A stretch of 52,362 bases of DNA from a bacterium (GCA_030616365.1 JAUWXM010000001.1:1-52362); one strand, 5' to 3'. Numbered from the stretch's first letter, positions 18,868 through 45,570 are shown. Translations and numbers: made by a program. The notes: generated by a model not told the origin, from the sequence alone.

Positions 18868-20493
18868 ATGATTCGCTTTGAGAAGATAATCCCCCTTATC
18901 CAGAAGTTTATCAGTGATCTTTTACTCCGGGGAGCAGTGAGATTAAGTTATGCTAAAATCAGCACCTACAGTCAGTGCCCCTTAAAGTATAAGTACCAGT
19001 ATATTGAGAAAAGACCCACCAAACCCAGTCCTTACTTAGACTTTGGCTCCACCATCCATAATACCCTAAGGGATTATCACAGAGACTTTGACCCTAAGCA
19101 AGCTAAGTTAGAGGGTCTGATGGCTGCTTATCAGAGGAACTGGATTGCTAAGGCCTATAATCAGGATAAAGAGGAAGAAGAGGCCTTCAGGGAACGCGGT
19201 AGACGCATCCTGGAGGCCTATTATGAGAAGGCCAAGGTAGACCCTAATCAAATCTTATACCTTGAGGAGTTCTTTCGGGTGAAGATCGGGGATTATGAAC
19301 TGGTGGGGAAGATAGACAGAATAGATAGGCTCCCTGATGGGGGATGGGAGATTATCGATTATAAGACTTCCCCTAAGGTCAAGGATGAGAGTGAATTGGA
19401 GAGCCCCCTCCATCCCACTGAGGTCCAGGAGACCCTGCAGCTCGATATCTATTATATTGCCTGCCAGGAGAACTGGAGGAGGGAACCGAAGAGGCTCTCT
19501 ATCTACTACCTTGCTGCCCAGGAGAACGGTCAATATCGACCGCGCAAGGTAAGCGTCTCCCGTAGCGGGGGAGAGGCCCCAAGAATAAAAGCCCTTAAAC
19601 GGGCCATCCACAATATCGCCCAGGGCATCCAGAAGGAGGACTTCTCGCCCAAGATCGGCCCCCTCTGTGGCTGGTGCGATTATAAAGAGCTCTGCCCGGA
19701 GTTCAAGGAGATCCCGGATGCTAAGGAGAGGTTGCGCCTCAGTTACTCCAAGATGAGTATGTTCCAGAGATGCCCCGCTCAGTATAAGGCGGTCTATATC
19801 GATAAGCTTCCCATGAAGCCCAAGTTCTTCTTTTCCTTTGGCTCCAGCATCCATGCTACTTTTGAGGAGTTCTACGATTATGATGGTCTCTTCACCACAC
19901 CCTCCCTGCGCTACCTCTTGAAACTCTATAATAAGCACTGGATCCCGGTCGGTTATCGGGATAAGAAAGAGGAGGAGAGGTACTATCAGGATGGGCTGAA
20001 GATGATGAAGGATTACTACCAGAAATTCATCAAGAAAGGCTTCCAGCGAGCCAGGTATTTAGAGAAGTACTTTGAGTTACCTATTGGGCAGAAAGCCATT
20101 ATGAGCGGTTATATGGACCGGGTGGACGAACTTCCCGATGGTAGCCACATATTAATCGATTACAAGACCGAGCCCCGCGAGCCTACCCAGGAGGACTTGG
20201 ATAACGACCTCCAGTTTACCACCTACTACTGGGCGGCCCCCATTGTCCTGGGCTTCACCTTCGATCATTTATACTTCGATTACCTGAGGTTTGGCAAGAG
20301 ATTCGAGACCAAAAGAACCCAGGAGGATATGGAGCGGCTCATCATTACTGTGGACCAGGCAGCAGAGGATATCCGACTGGCTACAGAACTGAATGATTTT
20401 CCCAGAAAGATGAATAAATACTGCGTAAGCTGCGACTTAGAGTGCCCCTACCAGGAAGAAGCAATAAAGATATACGGAGACTTAGAGGTCTAA
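18868..20493 (+). CDS. Tandem double PD-(D/E)XK (RecB/Cas4/AddB-type) nuclease, each half with a 4-Cys cluster
   Basis: Half 1: QCPLKYKY, GKIDRIDRLPDGGWEIIDYKTS, LQLDIYY, CGWCDYKELC. Half 2: RCPAQYKA, GYMDRVDELPDGSHILIDYKTE, LQFTTYY, CVSCDLEC. Confidence 0.8.
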   Translation: MIRFEKIIPLIQKFISDLLLRGAVRLSYAKISTYSQCPLKYKYQYIEKRPTKPSPYLDFGSTIHNTLRDYHRDFDPKQAKLEGLMAAYQRNWIAKAYNQDKEEEEAFRERGRRILEAYYEKAKVDPNQILYLEEFFRVKIGDYELVGKIDRIDRLPDGGWEIIDYKTSPKVKDESELESPLHPTEVQETLQLDIYYIACQENWRREPKRLSIYYLAAQENGQYRPRKVSVSRSGGEAPRIKALKRAIHNIAQGIQKEDFSPKIGPLCGWCDYKELCPEFKEIPDAKERLRLSYSKMSMFQRCPAQYKAVYIDKLPMKPKFFFSFGSSIHATFEEFYDYDGLFTTPSLRYLLKLYNKHWIPVGYRDKKEEERYYQDGLKMMKDYYQKFIKKGFQRARYLEKYFELPIGQKAIMSGYMDRVDELPDGSHILIDYKTEPREPTQEDLDNDLQFTTYYWAAPIVLGFTFDHLYFDYLRFGKRFETKRTQEDMERLIITVDQAAEDIRLATELNDFPRKMNKYCVSCDLECPYQEEAIKIYGDLEV

Positions 20494-20584
20494 AGGAGAA
20501 TAACGCAGAAACGCTGAAGGAGTAGAAGCGCAGAGGCGCCAAAATAAGAAGGGGTTCTGTTTTCTCTGCGTTTTTCAGTTCCAT

Positions 20585-20611
20585 TTTGCGTTTCGGCGGT
20601 TGCAAGGGAGG
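20585..20611 (+). promoter_or_regulatory. Conserved SD-fused box, ttttgcgtttcggcggttgcaagggagg
   Basis: Same box as at 26611-26632, 28953-28983 and 36722-36749, with a degenerate copy at 50077-50095. It ends in the Shine-Dalgarno sequence, 9 nt before ATG 20621. Confidence 0.6.
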
Positions 20612-20620
20612 ATAGAGAAG

Positions 20621-20788
20621 ATGAGAACCATGGAGCGCCGGGATATTCTGCGTCTCTTGCTAGTAACTTTCTTGGTCGGTTTTGTAGTATTAATCGTGGC
20701 CAAATTCAAGAGGGACTTTGCTTACGATATAAAGAGCAACCTGCGCAGCAACCGCAACTACTATCCTGCAGTCCAGGTGGAGAAATAA
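20621..20788 (+). CDS. Small single-TM protein (55 aa), unknown function
   Basis: MRTMERRDILRLLLVTFLVGFVVLIVAKFKRD... follows the conserved box. The ORF-track start at TTG 20600 lies inside the box. Confidence 0.45.
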   Translation: MRTMERRDILRLLLVTFLVGFVVLIVAKFKRDFAYDIKSNLRSNRNYYPAVQVEK

Positions 20789-20882: not shown

Positions 20883-21028
20883 AAGTTCCGATACCTCAAA
20901 ATAGATTTAGAGTAATAGTGATCAGTGATCGGTAATCGGTCAGTTAAAAAAATTAACTATTCAACATTTTAACTCATTAACTTGTTAACTTATCAACTTG
21001 TTAACTATCCGAGCAAAGCGAGGGTGAG

Positions 21029-24000
21029 ATGGTTGAGGCCTATGGAGCAAAGCCAATTGAGGAGAAACCAACTGGTAAGGGGATGGGATTAAAGGAGAAG
21101 AAAATAATCCTCTGCTGCTGGATCTTCATCTTAGGGGTGGCCTTGGCCACGGCCTTCTTCCATGGGGTTAGTTTTCGGGGCCGGGAGATTATTCCTCCCG
21201 AATCCTTCCTCATCCTCCCCCAATATCTCCCCATGGCCTGGGTTGCGGTTGTTCTTCTGGCGGCTCTGACCGCCTTTTTCTTTTATAGGAAGATGAGATG
21301 GGCCACTCATTCCTTACTCATCTTAGCCCTCCTCTTGAGTATCGCTTGCTATACCAATAAGGTAGATACCTCCCCTCCCAATCATCTAGTCCGTTTCCTG
21401 AGCAAGGATTTTGGGGAGAAGAGGGTGGTCATAGGAAAGATCTGGAAAGAGCCCGAGGTAAGGTATCATACCGATCCGGAAACAGGGAAGATGGAGCAGA
21501 AAGATACCCGAATCCTCATACGACCCACTAAGATTCAACTCGAACCCCCGGATGGCCCTTTCTATAAAGTCAAGAGAGGAGATATCTTAGTAAAGATCGT
21601 TCCCATGATTGGATGGGAAATCTATAACAGGCTATCCTCATCCGAGGCCCTGGGCTATACCGTCAAGTTACACGCTCCGCTACTTGAACCGCAACCCGCT
21701 ACCAATCCGGGAACCTTTGACTATAAAAAATACCTGACCAATAGCGGGGTCTATGCCACTTCCCCGCTCACCTATCCCAGTAGATGGGCCCCTCCCATTG
21801 AGATTCTGAAGGAGACCAGGGGAAGACTCTGGGTAGAGACCGCCCTGTTTATCAAGAAGAGGATGCTTACGCTCATTAAGAAGAGCATGCCCTATCCAGA
21901 GAGTGCCTTCCTGGGTGGGGTTACTCTGGGTCTGCGCCATGGACTGATGAAGCTCCATTATCAAGGTCATCCCTTAAGTGTGGAGAATGCCTTCAAGTGG
22001 TCAGGGACCTTCCATGTCTTGGCGGTCTCTGGCCTTCACGTAACGGTAATCGCTGGCCTCCTCTTCGGCCTCTCCCTTCTTCTGATCAAGTCAAGAGAGA
22101 AAGCGGCGGCCCTCACCCTCTTCTTCATGATCTTTTTCGCCCTGATGATATTCACCGCCCTTACCGGGGCCCGTCCCTCCACCATGCGCGCCTTCATCAT
22201 GGTCTCCATCGCCCTCCTTCTCTGGGCAATGGGTATTGGTCTGCGCTACTCCATCCTTCTATCCATCCCCATTGCGGGCACCGCCATCCTTCTCCTCAAC
22301 CCCCTGGTCCTGACCGAGGCCAGTTTCACCCTCTCCTTCGGTGCTGTTTTATCCTTAGGGCTGATTACCGGCCCCACTATGAAGTATTTAAGGCGGAAGG
22401 ACCTGAAGGGTCTACCTTCCGTAGCTCTTTTAGCTCTTGCCCTTATCTTTCCCATTATCTCCTATTTCCATAAAGAGGCCTTCAAAGAACTCTACACTAC
22501 CGGACAGTTCATCATCCTCGCTTTCCTACTTCTGGTACTCTCCTACGTCATTCAGAGACGCTATCGCTTTGGAAGGTTCCGGAGGGTAGAGAATATTATT
22601 ACCTATCGTGAGAAGCAGGGGGGCTTTAAGAGCATAGAGGAACTTGCTCAGGTTCCGGGCATAGATAGAGGAACTTCCTTAAGACTCAAGAAAAAGATGG
22701 AGAAGCCGGGGAAAGATATTAATACCATCTCTCCCTACGCCTTAGAGAATTTAATGCCGGGAGGACCCCTCTTCAGGTTTGGCCTGGGCAGTGGGAACCC
22801 CTTCTTTCTTGCCCGGTGGTTCTTTGCTTTCCTCTGTGCCCAGGTAGCCATTAACTTAGGGATGATGCTCCCCCTCTCCCTCTACTACTTCAAGCACATT
22901 CCCTATGCCGGTCCCTATGCCAACTTCATGGCTATTCCTCTGATTACCACTATCATCCCTTTAGGGATAATGGCGGGCATCCTGGGGATGATTATCCCTG
23001 GCTTGGGTCAGTACTTAGCCTTACTCATCAATGCGGGCAACTGGCTTCTGGTTAGATTCTTCCTCTGGCTTTCCTATACCGCCACCAATATCTTCCGCTA
23101 TCCTTTTGAGAAAACCCCTACGGTCTATCAGTTAGCTGGCTATTTCTCCCTCCTTCTGGTCTATGTTTATTTCGATGACCTGCATGGTCGTCTGGTCCGT
23201 GGGAGATTTAAGGAGAAGATGCGTGCCGGGATAATCATGGGCCTCGTTGCCCTCCTCTTCTTCATCGGTTCTCTATCCGCCCAGAGAAAGCCTCTTCTGA
23301 AGGTCCTCTATCTCTCCGTGGGATATGGGGACTCCATCTTAATCCAGACCCCCCAGGGAAAGAATATCCTCATTGATGGGGGATACCCCAGCCCCGACTG
23401 GGAGACCATCGCCCCGGTCTTAGTGAAGGAGGGGATTAAGAGATTGGATACCGTATTACTCACCAATCCCAGCCTGGAACATATGGGAGGATTGATCTCC
23501 GTCATTAAGAACTTTGAGGTCAACCAATTCATCGATAGCCTGGGTCCTGACCGGGTGAGCCCAGATATCTCCTATGATGAATTCCTCACCCTCTTAAATG
23601 AGAAGTATTTTTTGGAGAATAGAGATAAAGAATATGTCCGAGAGACCTATGAGACCTATCTAAAACTCTTAAGAGTCCTGAAGGAGAGGATGGTCATCCA
23701 TAAGAAGGGGAGCTATGGGACAATCATCGCTAAAGAGAGATTCCGGGGTAAGGATTTAGAGTTCTATATCCTGAACCCCATGGAACCTAAGATCGATTAT
23801 GCCTACTCCAACCTCTCGGCCAATTCCATAGTGACCAGGCTCATCTATGGTAATAACACCTTTTTATTTACCTCCAACCTTGGCCCAGAAGGAGAAGCGA
23901 GATTAGTGGCTTCCGGGAATGTCTTAAGAGGCGCCATTTTACAGATTCCCGCTCATGGGAACATCCATTCCAGCACCTCTGGTTTCTTAAGGGCGGTCAA

Positions 24001-24259
24001 TCCCCGGGTAGCCGTCCTCTGCTATGGAAGTGCCAAGTATTCTGGCCGGGATAAGAGAGAGGCCACACGACTCAAGAAGGAGATGCAACAGACCTTAGCC
24101 AAGTATCGAGGAGAGGTGGAGAGGTGCTACACTACAGACCGCTACTCTGAGAGTGCGGATATGGCGGTCATTATCACCTCCAATGGGAGAGAATATAGTA
24201 TAGAGACTATGCGTGGTCGCTCAAGGCATGAGAGACCATTAGTTATGAGGGCGCGCTAA
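21029..24259 (+). CDS. comEC: ComEC/Rec2 paralogue 1 (1076 aa): DUF4131-like OB region, competence membrane domain with an inserted ComEA-like HhH module, and an MBL domain with a degenerate metal motif
   Basis: FHVLAVSGLHVTVIAGLLFG competence motif. Insert IITYREKQGGFKSIEELAQVPGIDRGTSLRLKKKM (about 22586-22700). MBL region VGYGDS...LLTNPSLEHMGG...IPAHGNIHSS. Confidence 0.85.
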   Translation: MVEAYGAKPIEEKPTGKGMGLKEKKIILCCWIFILGVALATAFFHGVSFRGREIIPPESFLILPQYLPMAWVAVVLLAALTAFFFYRKMRWATHSLLILALLLSIACYTNKVDTSPPNHLVRFLSKDFGEKRVVIGKIWKEPEVRYHTDPETGKMEQKDTRILIRPTKIQLEPPDGPFYKVKRGDILVKIVPMIGWEIYNRLSSSEALGYTVKLHAPLLEPQPATNPGTFDYKKYLTNSGVYATSPLTYPSRWAPPIEILKETRGRLWVETALFIKKRMLTLIKKSMPYPESAFLGGVTLGLRHGLMKLHYQGHPLSVENAFKWSGTFHVLAVSGLHVTVIAGLLFGLSLLLIKSREKAAALTLFFMIFFALMIFTALTGARPSTMRAFIMVSIALLLWAMGIGLRYSILLSIPIAGTAILLLNPLVLTEASFTLSFGAVLSLGLITGPTMKYLRRKDLKGLPSVALLALALIFPIISYFHKEAFKELYTTGQFIILAFLLLVLSYVIQRRYRFGRFRRVENIITYREKQGGFKSIEELAQVPGIDRGTSLRLKKKMEKPGKDINTISPYALENLMPGGPLFRFGLGSGNPFFLARWFFAFLCAQVAINLGMMLPLSLYYFKHIPYAGPYANFMAIPLITTIIPLGIMAGILGMIIPGLGQYLALLINAGNWLLVRFFLWLSYTATNIFRYPFEKTPTVYQLAGYFSLLLVYVYFDDLHGRLVRGRFKEKMRAGIIMGLVALLFFIGSLSAQRKPLLKVLYLSVGYGDSILIQTPQGKNILIDGGYPSPDWETIAPVLVKEGIKRLDTVLLTNPSLEHMGGLISVIKNFEVNQFIDSLGPDRVSPDISYDEFLTLLNEKYFLENRDKEYVRETYETYLKLLRVLKERMVIHKKGSYGTIIAKERFRGKDLEFYILNPMEPKIDYAYSNLSANSIVTRLIYGNNTFLFTSNLGPEGEARLVASGNVLRGAILQIPAHGNIHSSTSGFLRAVNPRVAVLCYGSAKYSGRDKREATRLKKEMQQTLAKYRGEVERCYTTDRYSESADMAVIITSNGREYSIETMRGRSRHERPLVMRAR

Positions 24260-24345: not shown

Positions 24346-24765
24346 ATGAATTTTATCACCCTTATGAGTTTTGGCATGGTGCTGGTCATCCTCTTCTTAT
24401 TCCTTGAGAAGAGGTTATGGGAAAAGGAGCTGGAGCAGAAAAAGATTCTCTCCACCAAAAAAGGGGAGAAGGTCCAGTCCTCTGGTGAGGTGAGGATTGC
24501 TGACTGGCTCTTCGAGCATAATATTGAGTATGAATATGATCAGGAAAAAGAAATTGCTTCTGAGTTCATCCGTCCCGACTTCTATCTTCCCAGAGAGAAT
24601 GTGGTCATCGAATACTGGGGAATCATGACCGACCCCAGTTATCGACGACAGAGGGAAAGGAAAGAAAACCTATATCGCATGGAAGGAATGACTCTCATCT
24701 CCATCGAGAATATAGGGAGTATTGACAGTATCCTTTCTTCCAACCTTGAAAAAGAAGGAGTGTAA
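24346..24765 (+). CDS. Membrane-anchored small protein with a PD-(D/E)XK-like (restriction-endonuclease-fold) domain
   Basis: N-terminal TM FITLMSFGMVLVILFLFL. SSGEVRIADWL...YEYDQ...IRPDFYLPRENVVIEYWG...LYRMEGMTLISIE resembles the E...PDF...hhE.xG pattern of Vsr/DUF559/helicase-IV-N-type nucleases. Assignment is from motif memory only. Confidence 0.4.
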   Translation: MNFITLMSFGMVLVILFLFLEKRLWEKELEQKKILSTKKGEKVQSSGEVRIADWLFEHNIEYEYDQEKEIASEFIRPDFYLPRENVVIEYWGIMTDPSYRRQRERKENLYRMEGMTLISIENIGSIDSILSSNLEKEGV

Positions 24766-24770: not shown

Positions 24771-25319
24771 ATGTCCCTTTCTTCTGGCCAGAGACTAATA
24801 GTCATTATCCTCTTCCTGGCCTTTCTCTCTGGGGGAGGGGTTCTGGGCTATAAAATATCACAGGAGTATCCGGAATTTGCCCCAGCCGCTGAGATAGAGA
24901 AGCCTATTATTAAAGAAGCGGTTCCATCCCGACCAATAGTAGTGACAGAGAAGACTCCCATTGAGAAATTAGCTAAAAAGGAGAAAAAAAAACTTAAAGC
25001 CGCCTTAGCGATAAATATCAATACCGCCTCTTCAAAAGAATTGCAGAAGCTATCCTATGTCGGTCCCAAAACGGCAGAGAAGATCATCGCTGGTCGACCC
25101 TACGGAAGGAAAGAAGATATCATGAGGGTTAGTGGTATTTCCGAGGGGCGCTACCAGCAGATAAAGGATTACATCACTGTGAGCGGCAAGGGCTTAGAGG
25201 ATTATAAACCTCCCACAGAAAAGGCTAAGGTCCCAGCGGAAGAAAAGAAACTAAAAATCGTTAAAGTAGATACCGATGGGGACGGGATTCTCGATACCTG
25301 GATTACCAAACCCCAGTAA
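24771..25319 (+). CDS. ComEA-type HhH DNA-binding protein, membrane anchored, with a C-terminal DxDxDG motif
   Basis: TM LIVIILFLAFLSGGGVLGY. ININTASSKELQKLSYVGPKTAEKIIAGRPYGRKEDIMRVSGISEGRYQQIKDYITV. C-terminal VDTDGDGILD. Confidence 0.8.
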   Translation: MSLSSGQRLIVIILFLAFLSGGGVLGYKISQEYPEFAPAAEIEKPIIKEAVPSRPIVVTEKTPIEKLAKKEKKKLKAALAININTASSKELQKLSYVGPKTAEKIIAGRPYGRKEDIMRVSGISEGRYQQIKDYITVSGKGLEDYKPPTEKAKVPAEEKKLKIVKVDTDGDGILDTWITKPQ

Positions 25320-25435: not shown

Positions 25436-26491
25436 ATGGTTGAGGCCTATCAAGTAGAGAAAGAGCCAGAGAAACCAAAGGAAGTAAACCCCGCCCCTAT
25501 GAGGGGCGGGGTAAAGAGGTCGAATAAGGGTTTCTTCTCTTCAGTCATTATTCTACTTTTGCTTGCTTCCTCTGCCTGGGGATTGGCATTAAATGCCAAT
25601 TGGCGCCAAGCGCTCTATGCCTCCTTTAAGGAGGCCTCTCTTCCCACTCCCGTAGAGACCAAAGAAGCATATCGACCGCCTAAAGAATTGACTATTACCT
25701 ACTTCGACGTTGGCCAGGGATTGGGCCATCTCATTCAGATTCCTTCAGGAAAGGTGATTATGTATGATGCGGGAGAGGGAGCGGACCCGGACAATAAGTA
25801 TAGCAAGTATCGGGGTGCGGGGGGAAAGGCTGTTCTCCCGGTCTTAAGAGGAGAGCATATTAAAAAGATTGATGTTATCGTTAGTTCCCATCCCCATAGC
25901 GATCACCAGGGAGGATTCCTTTCCATATTGAGTAGCGATGAGTTTGAGATAGGGGAAGTATTAGACCCGGGTATGGTCCATCCCACCCCCACCTATAACG
26001 CCTTTCTGGAACTGATAGAGGCAAAAGGGATACCCTATCGCATTGTGAGGGATGGGGAGATACTGGACTGGGGCCCGGAGGTCTTTGTCCAGGTCCTCTC
26101 TCCTCCTAAAGGCCAGTTATGGACTCATGCCAATGATAACTCAGTGACTATAAAGTTAATCTATGGCAAGACCAGTTTCCTTTTCACGGGAGATATTGAG
26201 AAGTTAGCCATCAATAGACTCATCAATGAGTATGGCCCGAGAATAAAGGCAGACGTGGTTCAGGTTCCCCATCATGGCTCCAATACCTCAAACGATAGGA
26301 ACTTCCTTAGATTAGTAGGGGCCTCCCATGCCGTGACCAGTGGTACTGGAGGACCACCATTTGGTCATCCCACCCCAGAGACCGTGAAGAGGTGGAGAGA
26401 GATCGGGGCCCAGGTGCATCAGACCCATCTGGATGGAGATATTACCATCATCAGTGATGGAAAGAATATAAGAGTAAAGACCTTGAGGTAA
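25436..26491 (+). CDS. Free-standing membrane-anchored/exported metallo-beta-lactamase, ComEC C-terminal-domain type, metal motif intact
   Basis: TM FFSSVIILLLLASSAWGLAL. ITYFDVGQG...VSSHPHSDHQGG...FTGDIE...VPHHGSNTSN...FGHP. An alternative ATG exists at 25499. Confidence 0.8.
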   Translation: MVEAYQVEKEPEKPKEVNPAPMRGGVKRSNKGFFSSVIILLLLASSAWGLALNANWRQALYASFKEASLPTPVETKEAYRPPKELTITYFDVGQGLGHLIQIPSGKVIMYDAGEGADPDNKYSKYRGAGGKAVLPVLRGEHIKKIDVIVSSHPHSDHQGGFLSILSSDEFEIGEVLDPGMVHPTPTYNAFLELIEAKGIPYRIVRDGEILDWGPEVFVQVLSPPKGQLWTHANDNSVTIKLIYGKTSFLFTGDIEKLAINRLINEYGPRIKADVVQVPHHGSNTSNDRNFLRLVGASHAVTSGTGGPPFGHPTPETVKRWREIGAQVHQTHLDGDITIISDGKNIRVKTLR

Positions 26492-26526: not shown

Positions 26527-26610
26527 TAAGCGCCAAGTCGCTAAAGTTTAAAACAAAAACGCCAAATTATTTTGGCGCTTTTGCGAACTTTTAGCGCTTT
26601 AGCGTTTAGC

Positions 26611-26632
26611 GCTTTGGCGGTTGCAAAGGAGG
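26611..26632 (+). promoter_or_regulatory. Conserved SD-fused box gctttggcggttgcaaaggagg
   Basis: Identical to 28962-28983. Followed in both loci by tgaagaga. Confidence 0.6.
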
Positions 26633-28917: not shown

Positions 28918-28952
28918 ATTAGGAAAAGAATTTAATTTTGCGCCTTTGCGTT
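28910..28952 (+). repeat. 43-nt repeat spanning the last 2 codons, the stop and the downstream spacer (copy 2)
   Basis: See 26484-26526. Confidence 0.9.
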
Positions 28953-28983
28953 AAATTTTGCGCTTTGGCGGTTGCAAAGGAGG
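28953..28983 (+). promoter_or_regulatory. Conserved SD-fused box aaattttgcgctttggcggttgcaaaggagg
   Basis: Same box as 36722-36749 and 26611-26632. ATG 28992 follows 8 nt later. Confidence 0.6.
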
Positions 28984-28991
28984 TGAAGAGA

Positions 28992-33611: not shown

Positions 33612-33624
33612 TGAGGAGGTGTTT

Positions 33625-35083: not shown

Positions 35084-35090
35084 GGCAAAG

Positions 35091-36749: not shown

Positions 36750-36753
36750 AGAT

Positions 36754-37836: not shown

Positions 37837-37994
37837 AGAAATTACTTGGCAAGAAATTAAAGGTTATCGATCTGGGGCTGGAGTCCTTTCATGATTCATT
37901 AAAGGAGCAGGGAGTGGATGTTCTGCACGTTGACTGGAGACCACCCGCTGGTGGAAATAAGAGACTAATGGAAATCCTGAAGAAACTAAAGTGA
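37833..37994 (+). CDS. 53-aa ORF resembling the detached C-terminal module of FdrA
   Basis: KVIDLGLESFHDSLKEQGVDVLHVDWRPPAGGNKRLMEILKKLK. As I recall it, E. coli FdrA ends ...INIGLRSFALEL...VVHYQWSPVAGGNKKLARLLERLQ. ATGA overlap with the upstream gene. Below the ORF-track size cut-off. Confidence 0.55.
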   Translation: MKKLLGKKLKVIDLGLESFHDSLKEQGVDVLHVDWRPPAGGNKRLMEILKKLK

Positions 37995-38146
37995 AGAAGA
38001 AATTATTTTCTATTTTAATTATAGCCTTTCTTTTCTTAAGCTTTGATGGAGAAACTAAATCTTCTCTTTGGTTGAATAAAGTAGAGGGAAGGGTTATCTC
38101 ACAGTCGGGGGAGTATTCTCTTATTATGAGTTTTCCCATCCTATAG
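37991..38146 (+). CDS. Possible 51-aa exported peptide (GTGA-coupled); may be the frameshifted 5' part of a longer gene
   Basis: VKKKLFSILIIAFLFLSFDGE... looks like a signal peptide. A second open frame, 38080-38241, ends in an ATGA overlap with the next gene. Confidence 0.25.
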   Translation: MKKKLFSILIIAFLFLSFDGETKSSLWLNKVEGRVISQSGEYSLIMSFPIL

Positions 38147-38237
38147 GAGACCGCTTAACAGATAAGAAATGGCAGACGATGTTAAAAGAAGGTAGGGAGC
38201 CGCCACTGCCCATCTGGACGAAGACTTTTATTGAGAA

Positions 38238-39251
38238 ATGATAAAAAGAATATTTCTTATTGCGCTTATTCTATGTCTCTTTCTTGTTTCTGCTGCCTAT
38301 CCAGAGGATATTACCCTGGTGGCCGTAGGAGATATCATGCTGGGAAGATACATCGCTAAAGACTTAGCAAGAAAGGGCTACTCCTTTCCTTACCAAAAAG
38401 TTCAGGGCATCCTCTCTTCTGCTGATGTCACTTTTGGCAACTTAGAATGTTCTATCTCTAAGAGGGGCAAGACGACAGGAAAAGGGTATTTCTTTCGTGC
38501 TTCTCCTGAAGCAGCCCCAGGATTGGCCCGGGCGGGATTCGATATCCTATCCTTAGCCAATAACCACAGTATGGACTATGGAGCCTTGGCCCTTCAGGAT
38601 ACTATTGAGATATTGAATAAAAATCACATTCTACCTATAGGCGCCGGCAAAAATTTGACCGAGGCCAGAAAACCAATAATTATTGAAGTGAAGAAAAGAA
38701 AAATAGCCTTTTTGGCCTATTCTTTTGTCTATCCTGAAACCTACTGGGCAGGAAAAGACCGCGCGGGAACCTCTCCCGGGAAAATAGAATTCATTTGCCA
38801 GGACATAAAAAGAGCCCAGAGACTCTCTGATCTGGTTATCGTCTCTTTTCACTGGGGGAAGGAGTATAGTGAAGTGCCGAGTGACTACCAGATAAGGATT
38901 GCCCATCAAGCAATCGATGCCGGTGCTGATCTGATTATTGGTCACCATCCCCATGTGCTCCAGGGGATAGAGTTCTATAAAGAAAAACCGATTCTTTATA
39001 GCCTGGGTAATTTTATTTTTGATCAAGCATTCGGCAATACCAGAAAGGGCATTATTCTGAAGTGTATTTTTTCTGATGGTAATAAGTTGAAAACCATAAT
39101 CGGCATCCCCATCTCGCGCACCTATGCCACCTACTACCCCCAGATTGCTCAAGAGAAAGAGAAGGAAGAAATTATATCTCATTTTTTAGGGGTTTCAAAA
39201 TCACTCAATAAAGAACAAGAGAACTTGAGTAGATTACGATTCAAAGAGTAA
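38238..39251 (+). CDS. Exported CapA/PgsA-family metallophosphoesterase
   Basis: Signal peptide IFLIALILCLFLVSAAYP. VAVGDIMLGR...FGNLECSIS...LSLANNHSMDYG...SFHWGKEY...IIGHHPHVLQG...YSLGNFIFDQ. Confidence 0.8.
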   Translation: MIKRIFLIALILCLFLVSAAYPEDITLVAVGDIMLGRYIAKDLARKGYSFPYQKVQGILSSADVTFGNLECSISKRGKTTGKGYFFRASPEAAPGLARAGFDILSLANNHSMDYGALALQDTIEILNKNHILPIGAGKNLTEARKPIIIEVKKRKIAFLAYSFVYPETYWAGKDRAGTSPGKIEFICQDIKRAQRLSDLVIVSFHWGKEYSEVPSDYQIRIAHQAIDAGADLIIGHHPHVLQGIEFYKEKPILYSLGNFIFDQAFGNTRKGIILKCIFSDGNKLKTIIGIPISRTYATYYPQIAQEKEKEEIISHFLGVSKSLNKEQENLSRLRFKE

Positions 39252-39267
39252 ATTAAGGAGCGCGCCT

Positions 39268-40518
39268 ATGACCAGGAGGGGAAAGATTATAAATAGGGCG
39301 AATGGGAAAGCGGTCAAGAGGATGATCGATTCCCAGCCGATACTGGTAGATATTAAGCAGGCCAAGGATGTCATTCCGGAAATGACCAAGAGGACTATCC
39401 TTCATGCCGGACCTCCTATAGAATGGAAGAGGATGTGCGGACCGGTAAGGGGAGCCATAATGGGTGCCCTAATCTATGAGGGATTGGCAAGAAACCCCGA
39501 AGAGGCGAAAAAATTAGCGGCATCTGGGAAAATAAAATTTTCTCCCTGCCACCACCATAATGCGGTGGGCCCTATGGCCGGAGTAGTCTCAGCCTCTATG
39601 TATGTCTTTGTAGTCAAGAACGAGAAATTTGGAAATTATGCCTACTGCACCTTGAATGAGGGATTAGGAAAGGTATTGAGGTTTGGGGCCTATAGTGAAG
39701 AGGTAATCGAGAGGCTTAGGTGGATGGAAAAGGTCCTTGCTCCGGGCTTGAAGAAGGCGGTTAAGAAATCGGGAGGGATAAATATCAAGAACCTGACCGC
39801 TCAAGCACTTCAGATGGGTGACGAGTGCCATAATAGAAATGTTGCTGCAACATCATTATTTATAAAGGAGATTACTCCTTACTTCCTCAAGACCGATCTG
39901 GATAAGAAAATAATAAGAGAGATAATTGAGTTTATCTCGGGGAATGTTCACTTCTTTCTGAATATCTCCATGGCGGCCTGTAAGGCAACCGCAGATACTA
40001 TCCTTGGTTTTAAGAATAGTTCCTTAGTGAGCGCCATGGCCAGGAATGGGACAGAGATTGGAATAAGGGTGGCAGGATTAGGAAAGAAGTGGTTTACGGC
40101 AAAGGCCGGAATGCCCAAGGGGTTATACTTTGCGGGATATAGTGAAAAGGACGCCAATCCAGACTTAGGAGATTCCACAATATCAGAGGTCGCAGGCATC
40201 GGGGGATTTGCTATGGCCTCTGCCCCGGCTATCGTTCAGTTCATCGGAGGAAGTCCTCAGGATGCCATAAAATACACCAAAGAGATGTATGAGATTACTA
40301 TTTCCCAACATAGCACTTATAAGATTCCTTCCCTTGACTTTATGGGGACTCCTATTGGTATCGATATCAGAAAGATAGTTGAGACCGGGATTACTCCGTT
40401 TATCAATACTGGAATTGCCCATAAGAGACCGGGCATCGGCCAGATAGGAGCTGGCATCCTGCGCGCCCCCATGAGCATCTTCGAAGAGGCCTTGGTTGCC
40501 TTAAGTTTACCCCGTTAG
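39268..40518 (+). CDS. DUF1116 (YlbE-like) protein
   Basis: ILHAGPPIEWKRMCGPVRGAIMGALIYEGLA...HHHNAVGPMAGV... The family normally accompanies FdrA and DUF2877. Confidence 0.7.
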   Translation: MTRRGKIINRANGKAVKRMIDSQPILVDIKQAKDVIPEMTKRTILHAGPPIEWKRMCGPVRGAIMGALIYEGLARNPEEAKKLAASGKIKFSPCHHHNAVGPMAGVVSASMYVFVVKNEKFGNYAYCTLNEGLGKVLRFGAYSEEVIERLRWMEKVLAPGLKKAVKKSGGINIKNLTAQALQMGDECHNRNVAATSLFIKEITPYFLKTDLDKKIIREIIEFISGNVHFFLNISMAACKATADTILGFKNSSLVSAMARNGTEIGIRVAGLGKKWFTAKAGMPKGLYFAGYSEKDANPDLGDSTISEVAGIGGFAMASAPAIVQFIGGSPQDAIKYTKEMYEITISQHSTYKIPSLDFMGTPIGIDIRKIVETGITPFINTGIAHKRPGIGQIGAGILRAPMSIFEEALVALSLPR

Positions 40519-40714: not shown

Positions 40715-42613
40715 ATGATGAGTAAATATAAAGGATATAATGGGAAGTATATCCGGGTTGACCTGACAAAAGAGGAGATTAAAATCCTGGACCTCCCGGA
40801 TGATTTCATTGAGAATTATCTGGGAGGGAATGGCTTTGGGACAAAGATACTCTGGGATGAGGTCCCTCCAGAAGTAGATGCCTTAAACCCGGAGAATAGG
40901 CTCATTTTTGCTACCGGTGCCTTGACTGGAACCCTCTGGCCCTGTTCTGGTCATTTAGAGGTGATCAGTAAATCCCCTCTAACCGGGATCTATGGGGATG
41001 CCAATGCTGGCGGGTTCTTTGCTCCAGAACTGCGCTTTGCTGGCTACGACATGATCGTCTTTCAGGGAAAGGCAGAGAGACCGCTCTATCTATGGATTAA
41101 AGATGATAAGATTGCATTAAGGGATGCTAAGCATCTCTGGGGGAAGAATACCCCCTCTACTCAGAGGATGGTCAGGGAAGAATTGGGGGATGAGAAGATT
41201 AAGGTGGCTAGTATCGGGCCAGCAGGAGAGAATCTGGTGAGATTTGCCTGTATCGTAGTCACTGAGAATCGTGCTCTTGCTCGAGCAGGAATGGGAGCCG
41301 TAATGGGTTCTAAAAACTTGAAAGCCATTGCCGTAAGAGGAACGAAACAAGTGTCGGTAGATAATCCAGAGGAGTTTAAGAAGGCGGCTTCCCTGGCAAG
41401 AAAAGCCATAAAGGAGAATGAGTTCACTGCGGGAGAGCATAAGTATGGGACGGCAGGATTAGTAAATATTGTCAATGAGGTGGGAAGGTTTCCTACCAGG
41501 AACTTACAGGCCGGACACTTTAAAGAGGCGGATAAGATAAGTGGAGAAGCACTGGATGAGAAGCACTTTGTAAGACATCGCGCCTGCTATCGCTGTCCTA
41601 TTGCCTGTGATAAGGTAATGGAAGTAAGAGAAGGAGAGTATAAGGGAACGGTAACCTCTTCCCTGGAGTATGAGACACTATGTGCTCTTGGTTCAAAGTG
41701 TGGCAATAGCAACCTACCTTCTATTATAAAGATGAATGTCATCTGTGATAGCATGGGAATGGATACCATCTCTGCGGGAGGGGCTATCTCCTGGGCCATG
41801 GAGTGCTATGAGAAAGGCATCCTGACCAAAGAGAATACGGATGGCCTGGATTTATCTTGGGGGAATTATCATTCCATAATTACTCTATTGGAGAAAATTG
41901 CTAAAAGGGAAGGTTTTGGTGATATATTAGCAGAAGGTTGTAAGAAAGCAGCAGAAAAGACTGGCAGGGGTTCGGAGTATTATGCCATGCATGTCAAAGG
42001 AATGGAGATTCCTGCCCAGGATGGAAGGAGTCAGCAGTCCATGGGACTGGCCCATGTAACCTCTAATAGGGGAGCAGACCATCTTAAGGGGTTTCCTACT
42101 ATTGATGAGACTGGTTATCCGGGAGCAGCCATAAAGAGGTATGGAAAGGATAAGATGCCTGAGATAATAGATGGCATTCAGACAAAGCATAAGCCCTTTG
42201 TAGTAAAGGACGGGGAAGAGTTCTGCGCAGTGATTGACTCCGGTGGAATCTGTAAGTTCGGAACATTATTTCCTCCTGCTATCTATTGGGATCTTTTGAC
42301 TCCAGGAATAAAGTATGCTACTGGACTGGATGTCGATGTTCCAAAACTGAAGAAGATTGGGGAGAGGATATATAATCTGCAGAGATGCTACAATATCCTC
42401 TTGGGAATATCGAAGAAGGACGATACCCAGCCAGAGAGACTACTGAAGGAGCCCTCCCCCTCTAAAAGAGCCAAAGGCCATGTGGTCTACTTAGATAAGA
42501 TGTTGCCTGAGTATTATCAATTACGGGAATGGGACAAAAACGGCTATCCCACAAGGAAGAAGTTAGAAGAACTGGGCTTAGGCTTCGCTGCTGATAGACT
42601 TGCACGCAGATGA
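40715..42613 (+). CDS. aor: Aldehyde:ferredoxin oxidoreductase (tungstopterin AOR family)
   Basis: GYNGKYIRVDLTKEEI...NYLGGNGFGTKILWDE...GPAGENLVRFA...HRACYRCPIAC...GADHLKG... Confidence 0.85.
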   Translation: MMSKYKGYNGKYIRVDLTKEEIKILDLPDDFIENYLGGNGFGTKILWDEVPPEVDALNPENRLIFATGALTGTLWPCSGHLEVISKSPLTGIYGDANAGGFFAPELRFAGYDMIVFQGKAERPLYLWIKDDKIALRDAKHLWGKNTPSTQRMVREELGDEKIKVASIGPAGENLVRFACIVVTENRALARAGMGAVMGSKNLKAIAVRGTKQVSVDNPEEFKKAASLARKAIKENEFTAGEHKYGTAGLVNIVNEVGRFPTRNLQAGHFKEADKISGEALDEKHFVRHRACYRCPIACDKVMEVREGEYKGTVTSSLEYETLCALGSKCGNSNLPSIIKMNVICDSMGMDTISAGGAISWAMECYEKGILTKENTDGLDLSWGNYHSIITLLEKIAKREGFGDILAEGCKKAAEKTGRGSEYYAMHVKGMEIPAQDGRSQQSMGLAHVTSNRGADHLKGFPTIDETGYPGAAIKRYGKDKMPEIIDGIQTKHKPFVVKDGEEFCAVIDSGGICKFGTLFPPAIYWDLLTPGIKYATGLDVDVPKLKKIGERIYNLQRCYNILLGISKKDDTQPERLLKEPSPSKRAKGHVVYLDKMLPEYYQLREWDKNGYPTRKKLEELGLGFAADRLARR

Positions 42614-44045: not shown

Positions 44046-44060
44046 AAGGAGGTAAAATAA

Positions 44061-44822
44061 ATGAAGTTAATTGATCTGACTCAGCCCTTGAGTGTTTTGA
44101 CCCCTGCCTGGCCGACCTATGAGCCGTTGCAGGTGAAGTTCTTCAAGAGGTTGGCTCCCAATGGGGCCAATGGACAACTAATCACTACTTCCAACCATGT
44201 GGGGACCCATTTGGATGGTGCCTTACACTTCTGCACCCATGGAAGGGACATCGCCTCCATTCCTTTGGAGGATTTGTATGGGCCGGCAGCGGTGGTTGAT
44301 TTATCAGATATGGCAGAGGATTATGGTATTTATACCTCAAAGGATATTACCGATCGGGTGGAAGTTAAAAAAAGGGATATTTTAATCATCAATACTGGAT
44401 ACCATAAGTATGCCTGGGATCAGCCAGAGGCGGATGAGGTGAGATATATGTGTAAGCATCCTGGACCCACTATGGAGTTTGCTGATTGGTGCAAGAAGAT
44501 GGAGATTAAGTGGATCGGTGTGGACTGCGGAAGTGCCGATCATCCCATGAATACCAAGATAAGGGACTGGATGCCTCGTTTAGCCAAGGAATGCAATGAA
44601 TACTTTAAGAAGAAGCGTAAGAAGAGCATTGAGGAGATCTTTCCTTCTGACCATTATCAGCTGATGCACATTCAATTATTCCCTCATGACATCATCCATG
44701 CAGAGAACTTAGGGGGAGAGATAGATAAGGTGTTGAATAAGAGGACCATCGTGGGTTGCTTCCCCTGGAGGTTTATGGGGGGAGAATCCGCATTCTGCCG
44801 TATAGTAGCCTTTGAGAAATAA
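44061..44822 (+). CDS. Cyclase-family hydrolase (kynurenine formamidase / isatin hydrolase-like)
   Basis: MKLIDLTQPL...NHVGTHLDGALHF...IGVDCGSADHP... Confidence 0.7.
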   Translation: MKLIDLTQPLSVLTPAWPTYEPLQVKFFKRLAPNGANGQLITTSNHVGTHLDGALHFCTHGRDIASIPLEDLYGPAAVVDLSDMAEDYGIYTSKDITDRVEVKKRDILIINTGYHKYAWDQPEADEVRYMCKHPGPTMEFADWCKKMEIKWIGVDCGSADHPMNTKIRDWMPRLAKECNEYFKKKRKKSIEEIFPSDHYQLMHIQLFPHDIIHAENLGGEIDKVLNKRTIVGCFPWRFMGGESAFCRIVAFEK

Positions 44823-44832
44823 GGAGGAAATC

Positions 44833-45570
44833 ATGGAAAAAGAGTATCACATTGGGTTGAAGAAGGGAGATGTGGGAAGGTATGTCCTGCTTCCTGGTGA
44901 TCCGGCAAGAACAGAGATAATCGCCAAGCACTTTGAGAATGCTAGAGAAATGGGATTTACCAGGGAGTACCGGACATTCACCGGGACGGTAGATGGGATT
45001 AAGGTCTCTACCACTTCAACTGGAATTGGATGCCCCTCTACCGCTATTGCTATTGAAGAGTTGGCAAAGATCGGGGCGGATACCTTCATCAGGGTGGGAA
45101 CTGCTGGCTCCTTGCAGAAGGAAGTAAAATTAGGAGACGTCGTTATCTCCACTGGGGCGGTGAGGGAGGAGGGGACGACCAGACAGTATGTCCCTCTCAG
45201 TTACCCAGCAGTTGCTGATTTAGATGTAACCCAGGCCTTAGTGGAAGCAGCAAAAAAGTTAGGATTTCCTCATCATACGGGGATCGTCCACTGCAAGGAC
45301 GCCTTCTATACTGAGGGGGCAAAAGATCTGCCCTTGGCCGAACATAATGAGGAGATGTGGAAGGCCTGGTATCGCTCAAATGTCCTGGCCACCTCTATGG
45401 AGTCTAGCGCCTTATTCGTGGTCTCCTCAATAAAGAGGTTGAGGGCCGGAGAGGTATTGGCCATCATCGGCCTCACCTATGCCGATCAGCCTATCGAGAA
45501 GAAGGTAGGGATTACCGAAGCAATAAAGATCGCCATTGAAGCGGTGAAGATACTGGAAAAGGGCAGGTGA
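44833..45570 (+). CDS. udp: Uridine phosphorylase
   Basis: YVLLPGDPARTEIIAKHF...TSTGIGCPSTAIAIEELAKIGADTFIRVGTAGS...PAVADLDVTQALVEAAKKLG...MESSALF. SD aaggagg before ATG 44833. Confidence 0.85.
   Translation: MEKEYHIGLKKGDVGRYVLLPGDPARTEIIAKHFENAREMGFTREYRTFTGTVDGIKVSTTSTGIGCPSTAIAIEELAKIGADTFIRVGTAGSLQKEVKLGDVVISTGAVREEGTTRQYVPLSYPAVADLDVTQALVEAAKKLGFPHHTGIVHCKDAFYTEGAKDLPLAEHNEEMWKAWYRSNVLATSMESSALFVVSSIKRLRAGEVLAIIGLTYADQPIEKKVGITEAIKIAIEAVKILEKGR

What the first reader, a model, noticed from the sequence alone, without database searches (positions are those of the whole stretch)
18868..45570. The DNA-uptake/nuclease block directly abuts a pyrimidine-salvage and ring-cleavage block: a possible 'DNA as food' island
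Seen: immediately downstream of ComEC-2 come dcd, a UPRT-like PRTase, an exported CapA-type metallophosphoesterase, a CodA-like cytosine deaminase, a cyclase-family amidase and uridine phosphorylase. The FdrA/DUF1116/DUF2877 triad and a tungsten AOR sit among them. Upstream there are more nucleases than transformation needs: an exported MBL, a membrane PD-(D/E)XK-like protein and a double Cas4-like nuclease. Established: CodA, Udp, Upp and Dcd are pyrimidine salvage/interconversion enzymes. Competence machinery has been proposed as a nucleotide-scavenging route in reduced-genome bacteria. Inference: the locus may couple DNA import and degradation to base/nucleoside salvage. The duplicated YibE/F protein is a candidate transporter for degradation products; that last point is pure speculation.
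Basis: inference. Interest (0 to 1): 0.7.

Follow-up and report, generated by a model that had tools for sequence, protein, structure and literature searches.

The report
DNA-uptake genes abutting a pyrimidine-breakdown operon
In one uncultured sediment lineage, DNA-uptake genes run straight into an operon that handles pyrimidine nucleosides and probably cleaves ureides, but the two sets sit together in no other lineage sampled, so "DNA as food" remains plausible and untested.

Summary
All genes lie on the + strand. The upstream part holds two ComEC genes, four ComEA-like HhH proteins, a stand-alone ComEC-type MBL, a doubled YibE/F protein and Cas4-like nucleases. The downstream part runs dcd, AllH(DUF2877), FdrA, UPRT-fold protein, CapA, AllG(DUF1116), AOR, CodA-like, cyclase, Udp.

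Three corrections apply:
- The FdrA/DUF1116/DUF2877 triad is now known in E. coli as AllFGH, oxamic transcarbamylase. The block therefore looks catabolic (ureide to carbamoyl phosphate), not only salvage.
- CapA, YibE/F and AOR are variable insertions. CapA actually splits allG in this genome.
- The metabolic core recurs in many phyla with xanthine-dehydrogenase-type hydroxylases, xanthine/uracil permeases, carbamate kinase, MdcA or Udp, and never with ComEC.

The ComEC2-to-dcd junction is kept in seven close relatives (UBP18-like MAGs). The gap is only 10 nt in one of them, and dcd overlaps allH by 17 nt. Those relatives are collinear throughout, so this is inherited synteny. None of about 70 distant FdrA loci or 78 dcd loci shows the junction.

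Verdict: two modules juxtaposed in one lineage. Functional coupling is possible (about 0.25) but unproven. De novo nucleotide synthesis could not be checked.

The parts
18868..20493 (+). Double PD-(D/E)XK (Cas4/AddB-like) nuclease, 541 aa; each half has a 4-Cys motif
   Evidence: PF12705, two stretches, 2.7e-62. Cys motifs and (E/L)IDYK read from the translation.
20621..20788 (+). Small TM ORF (about 55 aa) preceded by a copy of the leader cassette (core 20595-20612)
21029..24259 (+). ComEC1: DUF4131 + Competence + HhH insert + MBL
   Evidence: TIGR00361 186.4 bits against a cutoff of 190.05
24346..24765 (+). 139-aa single-TM protein, possibly PD-(D/E)XK fold
   Evidence: No Pfam hit. AF2 pLDDT 76; best PDB match is the I-Bth0305I nuclease domain, E 3e-3. 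Kept in L076.
24771..25319 (+). ComEA-like HhH protein with an N-terminal TM helix
   Evidence: PF12836 3.3e-14
25436..26491 (+). Membrane-anchored stand-alone MBL, paralogue of the ComEC C-terminal nuclease domain
   Evidence: PF00753. 38% identity to ComEC2 residues 465-720, E 6e-53.
26572..28917 (+). Doubled YibE/F membrane protein. A variable insertion flanked by two leader-cassette copies (cores 26616-26633 and 28967-28984).
   Evidence: PF07907, two stretches, 1e-133. Absent from L002 and L076. Cassettes.
28938..29657 (+). ComEA-like protein with two HhH_3 domains (likely start ATG 28992)
29938..30615 (+). ComEA (SLBB + HhH_3)
30869..33052 (+). ComEC2, the canonical ComEC/Rec2
   Evidence: TIGR00361 302.5 bits against a cutoff of 190
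33102..33611 (+). K/E-rich protein with a C-terminal TM helix (g169); a variable filler at the junction
   Evidence: No family. Present in L003 and L004 only.
33619..34143 (+). dCTP deaminase (dcd); its last 17 nt overlap the allH start
   Evidence: TIGR02274 148.6 bits against a cutoff of 92.8. Overlap. Same overlap in L076.
34127..35083 (+). AllH-like subunit (DUF2877)
   Evidence: PF11392 4e-27. Start inferred.
35091..36632 (+). FdrA/AllF-like subunit
   Evidence: NF004760 510 bits against a cutoff of 433
36751..37836 (+). UPRT-fold type I PRTase-like protein with a C-terminal helical extension. The leader-cassette core 36733-36750 lies just upstream.
37833..37994 (+). AllG N-terminal fragment (53 aa), split off by the CapA insertion
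   Evidence: Alignment to the AllG N-termini of L001, L002, L005 and L076. ORF.
37991..39251 (+). Insertion inside allG: a 51-aa signal-peptide ORF plus an exported CapA/PGA_cap metallophosphoesterase-family protein (38238-39251)
   Evidence: PF09587 6e-84. Absent from all relatives..
39268..40518 (+). AllG-like subunit (DUF1116), C-terminal 416 aa
   Evidence: PF06545 2e-100
40715..42613 (+). Aldehyde:ferredoxin oxidoreductase family enzyme; variable (absent in L076)
   Evidence: PF02730 + PF01314
42798..44045 (+). CodA-family amidohydrolase. Metal and catalytic residues are kept; the E. coli D314 position is Cys.
44061..44822 (+). Cyclase-family (kynurenine-formamidase-like) metal hydrolase, the conserved partner of AllFG across phyla
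   Evidence: PF04199. Metal motif. 53-78% identity next to AllG in more than 25 loci.
44812..45570 (+). Uridine phosphorylase
   Evidence: TIGR01718 294.9 bits against a cutoff of 280.3
45682..46512 (+). Single-domain Cas4-like PD-(D/E)XK nuclease, followed by polA (46572-49238)
   Evidence: conserved in L002 and L076

Best explanation
Two separate functional modules lie head to tail in one narrow, uncultured lineage (UBP18-like MAGs).

Module 1 (about 1-33 kb) is a type IV pilus/competence supercluster. It holds pseudopilins, PilMNOQ, two ComEC genes, four ComEA-like HhH proteins, a free ComEC-type MBL nuclease domain and Cas4-like nucleases. It binds and imports DNA.

Module 2 (33.6-45.6 kb) is a lineage variant of a widespread anaerobic module for breaking down N-heterocycles or ureides. 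Its core is an AllF/AllG/AllH-type carbamoyltransferase plus a cyclase-family ring amidohydrolase.

Inferred mechanism of module 2:
1. Udp releases uracil from uridine.
2. The CodA-family enzyme deaminates a cytosine-type base.
3. The cyclase-family hydrolase opens a cyclic amide to give an acyl-ureide. This may happen directly or after oxidation. Other phyla carry a xanthine-dehydrogenase-type hydroxylase for that step; here it could be the AOR-family enzyme.
4. The AllFGH-like enzyme phosphorolyses the ureide to carbamoyl phosphate, which yields NH3, CO2 and ATP through a carbamate kinase encoded elsewhere.
5. dcd and the UPRT-fold protein are pyrimidine-interconversion genes riding in the same operon.

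What is shown: gene identities, operon-like spacing, the distribution of the module across phyla, and the restriction of the junction to one clade. What is inferred: substrates, the direction of flux, and any flow of imported DNA into module 2.

The juxtaposition is best read as inherited synteny that may allow co-transcription. It is not a demonstrated 'DNA as food' island.
For: -
- AllFGH was shown biochemically to be oxamic transcarbamylase in E. coli (PMC11326118).
- Across 75 FdrA loci, the AllH-FdrA-AllG core travels with a cyclase in more than 25 loci and with a three-subunit XDH-family hydroxylase in about 19. It also travels with a xanthine/uracil permease (6 loci), carbamate kinase (6), MdcA (4, passing TIGR01110), Udp (6) and CodA-family amidohydrolases.
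- L076 carries the conserved unknown protein u245 (70% identity) and an amidohydrolase 75% identical to the one beside AllG and the cyclase in a Myxococcales MAG.
- In an NJ tree, the window's AllG groups with the Udp-, PRT- and MdcA-linked forms and apart from the carbamate-kinase-linked E. coli type.
- No ComEC, ComEA, MBL or dcd lies within 8-10 kb of FdrA in about 70 distant loci, and none lies near dcd homologues of 73% identity or less.
- The window and L076 are collinear over all shared genes.
- CapA, YibE/F, AOR and g169 are indels.
Against: - ComEC2, dcd and allH are packed as in a single operon. The ComEC2-dcd gap is 10 nt in L005, and the dcd/allH overlap of 17 nt is kept in L076.
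- The block is flanked on both sides by DNA-processing genes (ComEC upstream; a Cas4-like nuclease and PolA downstream).
- A roughly 30-nt leader cassette precedes three DNA-uptake-block genes and the PRT-like gene, and precedes dcd in L079.

These features are what a real functional coupling would look like.

- The catabolic mechanism has gaps in this lineage. The window holds no hydroxylase of the XDH type and no carbamate kinase, and allG is split.
Confidence: 0.55

Rival explanations
1. One reading: a true 'DNA as food' supra-operon. DNA captured by the pilus and ComEA is imported by ComEC and degraded by the extra nucleases. The resulting pyrimidine nucleotides and nucleosides are then channelled to dcd, Udp, CodA, the PRTase and ring cleavage, for salvage and for energy and nitrogen.
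For: - The junction is conserved in all seven relatives.
- The ComEC2-dcd gap is 10 nt in L005, and dcd overlaps allH.
- A shared leader cassette occurs in both blocks.
- The block sits between ComEC and a Cas4-like nuclease with PolA.
- There are precedents for using DNA uptake for nutrition (PMC8513845, PMC11784314).
Against: - No independent recurrence in any other lineage.
- The relatives are collinear everywhere, so the kept junction is uninformative.
- CapA, YibE/F and AOR are not conserved.
- The block has no nucleotidase, thymidine phosphorylase or deoxyribose-phosphate enzymes.
- Udp is primarily a ribonucleoside enzyme (established knowledge of the family).
- The leader cassette is absent from most relatives.
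Confidence: 0.25
2. Nucleotide-pool support for transformation and repair. In this view dcd, and perhaps Udp, CodA and the PRTase, adjust dNTP/dUTP pools for recombination and gap-filling by the adjacent PolA. This parallels the dCMP deaminase gene comEB inside the B. subtilis comE operon. The AllFGH genes would be unrelated passengers.
For: - A deoxycytidylate deaminase gene sits inside a comE operon in B. subtilis, where it is dispensable for transformation and acts mainly through translational coupling (bioRxiv 10.1101/2020.12.30.424838).
- dcd lies directly after ComEC2.
- PolA and a nuclease lie downstream.
Against: - dcd is translationally coupled to allH, not to comEC.
- Udp, the CodA-family enzyme and the cyclase travel with AllFG in other phyla that have no competence genes.
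Confidence: 0.1
3. Module 2 is a bona fide oxalurate/oxamate transcarbamylase operon for anaerobic purine or allantoin breakdown, as in E. coli. The pyrimidine genes would be only neighbours.
For: - All three subunits match the AllF/AllG/AllH families.
- E. coli AllFGH has this activity (PMC11326118).
- Parabanate ring opening would give oxalurate, so a cyclic amidohydrolase could feed the enzyme. This point is inference.
Against: - The window and L076 hold no allB, allC, allD or carbamate kinase.
- AllG falls in a different NJ clade from the carbamate-kinase-linked E. coli type.
- Linkage to Udp recurs in three lineages, and linkage to MdcA (malonate) in four loci.
Confidence: 0.1

Closest known systems
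E. coli allFGHK operon (oxamic transcarbamylase AllF-AllG-AllH plus carbamate kinase AllK; PMC11326118, PMC9843812)
   Same: The same three protein families are present: FdrA (NF004760 passed), DUF1116 and DUF2877. They lie in one co-directional cluster in an anaerobe-type context.
   Different: - There is no allK and no allB/C/D here.
- The gene order is allH-allF-(PRT-like)-allG.
- allG is split by an insertion.
- The partners are a cyclase-family hydrolase, a CodA-family amidohydrolase and Udp.
- AllG lies in a separate NJ clade, so the substrate may not be oxalurate.
B. subtilis comEA-comEB-comEC operon
   Same: A cytosine-nucleotide deaminase gene lies in the same tightly packed array as comEA and comEC.
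   Different: - ComEB is a zinc dCMP deaminase placed upstream of comEC and translationally coupled to it.
- Here the gene is a dCTP deaminase (dUTPase-like fold) placed downstream of comEC and overlapping allH.
DNA as a nutrient through competence-gene homologues (E. coli, from my own knowledge of Finkel and Kolter 2001; Liberibacter PMC8513845; Deinococcus PMC11784314)
   Same: The idea is the same: pilus/ComEC import supplies nucleotides or nutrients.
   Different: Those cases rest on phenotypes or on missing biosynthetic genes, not on linkage between com genes and catabolic genes. Here only the linkage is known.
Oxidative pyrimidine pathway (uracil dehydrogenase, barbiturase, ureidomalonase; established biochemistry, from my own knowledge)
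   Same: - In other phyla the module pairs a Mo-hydroxylase, a ring-opening amidohydrolase and a ureide-cleaving enzyme, sometimes with malonate-handling MdcA.
- Ureidomalonate is the one-carbon homologue of oxalurate.
   Different: - The ring opener here is a cyclase-family enzyme, not an AtzD-type barbiturase.
- The ureide would be phosphorolysed rather than hydrolysed.
- None of this is tested, and the window itself lacks the hydroxylase.

Membership tests
ComEC/Rec2 DNA-import channel | DUF4131 + Competence + MBL domains, scoring above the TIGR00361 equivalog cutoff | tested here: met
   ComEC2 scores 302.5 bits against a cutoff of 190. ComEC1 scores 186.4, just below the cutoff, with all domains plus an HhH insert.
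AllFGH oxamic transcarbamylase | All three subunit families are encoded together | tested here: met
   PF11392 (AllH), NF004760 (FdrA, 510 bits against 433) and PF06545 (AllG). AllG is split into 53-aa and 416-aa ORFs.
AllFGH oxamic transcarbamylase | Operon context of the characterised enzyme: carbamate kinase allK and the allantoin genes allB/C/D | tested here: not met
   None is present in the window or within 10 kb in L076 and L002. Carbamate kinase is found in only 6 distant loci.
AllFGH oxamic transcarbamylase | Oxalurate + Pi <-> oxamate + carbamoyl phosphate activity | not testable with these tools
   This needs purified enzyme. The NJ tree places the window's AllG outside the carbamate-kinase-linked E. 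coli-type clade (no bootstrap support).
Uridine phosphorylase | TIGR01718 equivalog score above cutoff | tested here: met
   294.9 bits against a cutoff of 280.3
dCTP deaminase | TIGR02274 equivalog score above cutoff | tested here: met
   148.6 bits against a cutoff of 92.8
Cytosine deaminase CodA | Family score above cutoff, and E. coli CodA metal and substrate residues kept (H61, H63, Q156, H214, E217, H246, D313, D314) | tested here: inconclusive
   NF005748 scores 432 bits against a cutoff of 438. All residues are kept except D314, which is Cys, and H312, which is Gln. L076 has a 41%-identical paralogue in the same slot.
Type I phosphoribosyltransferase (UPRT-like) | PRTase fold with a PRPP-binding loop | tested here: inconclusive
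   - There is no Pfam hit above threshold (PRTase-CE 19.7 bits against 27).
- The PDB profile hit to UPRT has E 0.29.
- The AF2 model (pLDDT 88.8) matches UPRTs best, with E 5e-6 but TM only 0.5-0.56.
- Invariant D140, A143, T144 and G145, and the LRGGL motif, are present.
Mobile genomic island | Integrase, tRNA flank, terminal repeats, sharp composition break | tested here: not met
   - No tRNA.
- No integrase among the Pfam hits.
- GC dips only mildly, to 0.42-0.43 at 34-40 kb.
- The block is syntenic in relatives.
Functionally coupled 'DNA as food' locus | Linkage of DNA-uptake and pyrimidine-catabolic genes recurring independently in unrelated lineages | tested here: not met
   None of about 70 distant FdrA loci and none of 78 dcd loci shows it. 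It occurs only in one collinear clade.
Functionally coupled 'DNA as food' locus | Absence of de novo nucleotide synthesis, and co-expression of the two blocks | not testable with these tools
   Only 10-kb flanks of relatives could be fetched, and no expression data are available.

The most novel reading that the evidence does not exclude
The AllF/AllG/AllH-like enzyme, together with the cyclase-family hydrolase, a CodA-family amidohydrolase, Udp and the unknown proteins u245 and the UPRT-fold protein, forms an undescribed anaerobic pyrimidine-degradation route. In this route an acyl-ureide, for example ureidomalonate or a related ring-opened uracil derivative, is phosphorolysed to carbamoyl phosphate. 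That would conserve ATP. In the UBP18-like lineage this route would be co-transcribed with comEC, giving a genuine operon for eating imported nucleic acid.
Probability: 0.15. Interest if true: 0.75.

Novelty: new variant of a known kind. Interest (0 to 1): 0.45.

Why it matters
If the coupling were real, it would be the first genetic (operon-level) link between the ComEC import machinery and a pathway that consumes nucleobases. That would make the long-debated "competence for food" idea directly testable in an uncultured phylum.

Independently of that, the survey shows something else. The recently assigned oxamic transcarbamylase (AllFGH) has a large set of homologues across anaerobic phyla. 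They sit in conserved clusters with a cyclase-family hydrolase, XDH-type hydroxylases, uracil/xanthine permeases, Udp, MdcA and carbamate kinase. No paper in the library searched describes these clusters. They are a good candidate for an unrecognised, ATP-yielding N-heterocycle degradation pathway.

Tried and rejected
- An exact-protein look-up of the window's FdrA found nothing on record.
- Rfam found no riboswitch or other RNA family in the window, and there are no tRNAs.
- Promoter and terminator scans were at chance level and gave no operon boundaries.
- Literature searches for DUF1116/DUF2877, for ylbE/ylbF with cyclase or XDH, and for ureidomalonate or barbiturase found no description of the extended cluster.
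- The leader cassette has no convincing conserved RNA structure (-6.8 kcal/mol), and no flanking repeats mark the CapA insertion.
- The PRT-like family is not obligately linked to AllFG: P0051 stands alone in a 569-kb contig.
- A mobile-island reading was rejected (no integrase, no tRNA, syntenic in relatives).
- A defence-system reading of the extra nucleases was considered. The MBL and Cas4-like hits to Avs1a, 6A-MBL and cas4 all fall far below their cutoffs.

Full report
**What is in the window.**
All credible genes in the 52-kb window are on the + strand. Pfam and NCBIfam scans give the following layout.
- Eight pseudopilin or minor-pilin genes (197-5491), an HhH protein, PilM-N, PilO, TPR/AMIN/HEAT proteins, a PilQ secretin (14140-16218), a TPR protein and a Cache-GAF sensor.
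- The finding's region starts with a 541-aa double PD-(D/E)XK nuclease, each half carrying a Cas4/AddB-type cysteine motif.
- Next come ComEC1 (1076 aa, with an HhH insert), a 139-aa single-TM protein, an HhH protein and a membrane-anchored MBL. The MBL is 38% identical to the ComEC2 MBL domain.
- Then a doubled YibE/F protein, two ComEA-like proteins and ComEC2 (passes the TIGR00361 equivalog).
- Downstream lie g169, dcd, AllH, FdrA, a 361-aa protein with no family, CapA, AllG, AOR, a CodA-like amidohydrolase, a cyclase-family hydrolase and Udp.
- After that come a single-domain Cas4-like nuclease, PolA, CoaE and Rho. The last two are named by comparison with L076.

- The "UPRT-like PRTase" has no Pfam family. 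An AF2 model built on 24 homologues (pLDDT 88.8) matches uracil phosphoribosyltransferases best (E 5e-6, TM 0.5-0.56). The family keeps the LRGGL and D-x-x-A-T-G-x-T motifs.
- The "membrane PD-(D/E)XK-like" protein has only weak fold-level support.

**Reinterpreting the triad.**
Pfam now names DUF2877 and DUF1116 as AllH and AllG. With FdrA (AllF) they form E. coli oxamic transcarbamylase. That enzyme phosphorolyses oxalurate to oxamate and carbamoyl phosphate, and carbamate kinase AllK then makes ATP (PMC11326118; PMC9843812). The block is therefore centred on a catabolic, ureide-cleaving enzyme, not only on salvage enzymes.

**Operon anatomy.**
- The gaps are ComEC2 to g169 49 nt, g169 to dcd 7 nt, and AllH to FdrA 7 nt.
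- dcd overlaps the most likely allH start (ATG 34127, preceded by AAGG..AGG) by 17 nt.
- CodA to cyclase is 15 nt, and cyclase overlaps udp by 11 nt.
- Larger gaps precede the PRT-like gene (118 nt), CapA (401 nt), AOR (196 nt) and CodA (184 nt).
- Consensus promoter and terminator scans are at chance level. Rfam finds nothing, and there are no tRNAs.

**Relatives.**
A genome-collection scan with FdrA returned 75 loci. Five are close relatives (FdrA 79-86% identical), including bacterium UBP18_UBA7526, an unclassified candidate-phylum MAG. UBP18 is a placeholder phylum seen in marine sediments.

tblastn with all window proteins, a look-up of a 77%-identical PRT-like homologue on a 449-kb contig (L076) and a metagenome scan with dcd gave three results.
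- The order ComEA, ComEA, ComEC2, dcd, AllH, FdrA, PRT-like, AllG, (AOR), CodA-family, cyclase, Udp, Cas4-like, PolA is kept in every close relative long enough to show it (L001, L002, L003, L005, L076, L079).
- In L005 the ComEC2 stop and the dcd start are 10 nt apart. In L076 dcd overlaps allH by 17 nt, as in the window.
- The window and L076 are collinear over all shared genes and differ only by indels, so a kept junction carries little functional information.

**Variable parts.**
- YibE/F is missing from L002 and L076. AOR is missing from L076. g169 is present only in L003 and L004.
- CapA is missing from every relative.
- In relatives, AllG is about 465 aa and begins M..LFGK.LKVIDLGLESFHDSL.EQGV.VLHVDW.
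- In the window that N-terminus is a separate 53-aa ORF (37833-37994). It is followed by a 51-aa signal-peptide ORF and CapA. AllG resumes at 39268.
- CapA is thus a roughly 1.3-kb insertion inside allG, not an ancestral pathway member.
- L076 has, after udp, a 241-aa protein of the conserved unknown family u245. In the CodA slot it has an amidohydrolase only 41% identical to the window's enzyme. That L076 enzyme is 75% identical to one beside AllG and the cyclase in a Myxococcales MAG, and 69-70% identical to ones near AllH-FdrA-AllG-Udp clusters in other phyla.

**The module elsewhere.**
I clustered all ORFs within 8 kb of FdrA in the 75 loci and annotated representative members. This shows a widespread cluster: (u245)-AllH-FdrA-AllG-cyclase-XDH(FAD, 2Fe-2S, Mo subunits)-xanthine/uracil permease. 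It occurs in Caldisericota, Thermotogota, Spirochaetota, Elusimicrobiota and others.

Variants of it are:
- carbamate kinase (6 loci);
- Udp directly after AllG (L009-L011, L013, L034);
- the PRT-like gene between FdrA and AllG (four Elusimicrobia loci);
- malonate decarboxylase subunit MdcA (4 loci, one passing TIGR01110);
- AOR (L071).

An NJ tree of AllG has no support values and is only a rough guide. It separates a carbamate-kinase-linked clade (E. coli type), a cyclase/XDH/permease clade, and a third clade. The third clade holds the window together with the Udp-, PRT- and MdcA-linked forms.

None of the roughly 70 distant loci has ComEC, ComEA, a ComEC-type MBL, dcd, a Cas4-like nuclease or PolA within 8-10 kb by tblastn or phmmer. 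The one exception is an unrelated HhH ORF in L023. dcd homologues of 73% identity or less have neither ComEC nor AllH nearby.

**Mechanism.**
The context points to breakdown of a pyrimidine or purine-type heterocycle.
- A nucleoside phosphorylase and a CodA-family deaminase deliver the base.
- A hydroxylase (in other phyla) and a metal-dependent cyclic amidohydrolase open the ring. The cyclase keeps its HxGTHxDxxxH motif.
- The AllFGH-like enzyme phosphorolyses the resulting acyl-ureide to carbamoyl phosphate.

Ureidomalonate, the ring-opened form of barbiturate, is the one-carbon homologue of oxalurate, and MdcA linkage fits a malonate product. This is inference; nothing here tests substrates. 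In the window lineage no XDH-type hydroxylase or carbamate kinase is seen within reach, so the pathway is incomplete as observed.

**Is it "DNA as food"?**
Points in favour:
- Operon-like packing of ComEC2, dcd and allH.
- DNA-processing genes on both flanks.
- A pyrimidine-centred gene set.
- A roughly 30-nt leader cassette, ATTTTGCGCTTTGGCGGTTGCAA(G/A)GGAGG. It occurs four times in the window against 0.06 expected. Each copy lies directly upstream of a start codon: the small ORF before ComEC1, YibE/F, ComEA239 and the PRT-like gene. One more copy lies upstream of dcd in L079.

Points against:
- The cassette is absent from the other relatives.
- The linkage never recurs outside one collinear clade.
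- No nucleotidase or deoxyribose enzymes are present.
- A deoxycytidylate deaminase gene inside a com operon has a precedent that needs no metabolic link (B. subtilis comEB).

I put functional coupling at about 0.25, and juxtaposition of two independent modules at about 0.55.

**Novelty and limits.**
No paper in the searched library describes the extended AllFGH-cyclase-XDH/Udp clusters.

Noticed in passing
window 20595-20612, 26616-26633, 28967-28984, 36733-36750 (cores); L079 3785-3801: A roughly 30-60-nt leader cassette (…TTTAGCGCTTTGGCGGTTGCAARGGAGG, then 5-9 nt, then a start codon) precedes a small TM ORF before ComEC1, YibE/F, ComEA239 and the PRT-like gene. In the closest relative it precedes dcd. 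There are 4 hits against 0.06 expected. It is absent from the other relatives and from 1.8 Mb of other loci, and it has no convincing RNA structure. It could be a shared promoter, RBS or operator, or a small mobile repeat.
   Followed up: partly
window 37833-40518: allG (DUF1116) is split. A 53-aa N-terminal ORF (37833-37994) is separated from the 416-aa remainder (39268-40518) by a roughly 1.3-kb insertion. The insertion carries a 51-aa signal-peptide ORF and the CapA-like gene. Relatives have an intact AllG of about 465 aa. No flanking repeats were found.
   Followed up: yes
window 26572-28917: The doubled YibE/F gene is absent from L002 and L076. In the window it is flanked by two copies of the leader cassette. 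The upstream copy even mimics the first codons of ComEA239 (ACG AGA AAA against ATG AGA AAG). This suggests insertion with duplication of the ComEA239 5' region.
   Followed up: partly
window 20961-21005, 25346-25405: The motif TCAACTTGTTAAC (contains GTTAAC) occurs three times just upstream of ComEC1 and twice upstream of the stand-alone MBL. There are 7 hits at up to 2 mismatches against 0.78 expected. None lies in front of the metabolic genes. It is a candidate competence-specific operator.
   Followed up: partly
window 42798-44045 (residues about 308-312): The CodA-like enzyme keeps all E. coli CodA metal and catalytic residues but has Cys at the D314 position (GQDCLKD against GHDDVFD). 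Its best PDB matches are the engineered D314A/S/G variants. This hints at a substrate other than plain cytosine, such as a 5-substituted cytosine (speculative).
   Followed up: partly
L006-L074 (e.g. L018 3196-14000, L033, L037, L060): A conserved cluster occurs in many anaerobic phyla: u245-AllH-FdrA-AllG-cyclase-XDH(FAD/FeS/Mo)-xanthine/uracil permease. Variants carry carbamate kinase, Udp, MdcA or a thiolase with a DUF35-type OB protein. No paper describing it was found in the library searched.
   Followed up: partly
window 2492-3448 and 5507-7006: Two proteins in the pilin cluster carry ComEA-type HhH_3 DNA-binding motifs: a PilX_N/GspK-like minor pilin, and a 499-aa protein with a sub-threshold HhH_3 match. 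This suggests a pilus tip that binds DNA directly.
   Followed up: no
window 29658-29700 and 30616-30660: Similar GC-rich hairpins (GCCTGCC..GGCAGG) follow the stop codons of both ComEA genes. Several intergenic spacers contain their own short direct repeats, for example ACGAATCAACGCGAAT twice upstream of ComEC2.
   Followed up: no
window 34000-40000: GC drops to 0.42-0.43 over allH, fdrA, the PRT-like gene and CapA, against 0.46-0.51 in the flanks.
   Followed up: no
window 45682-46512 with 46572-49238: A single-domain Cas4-like PD-(D/E)XK nuclease lies immediately upstream of polA. The pairing is conserved in L002 and L076.
   Followed up: no
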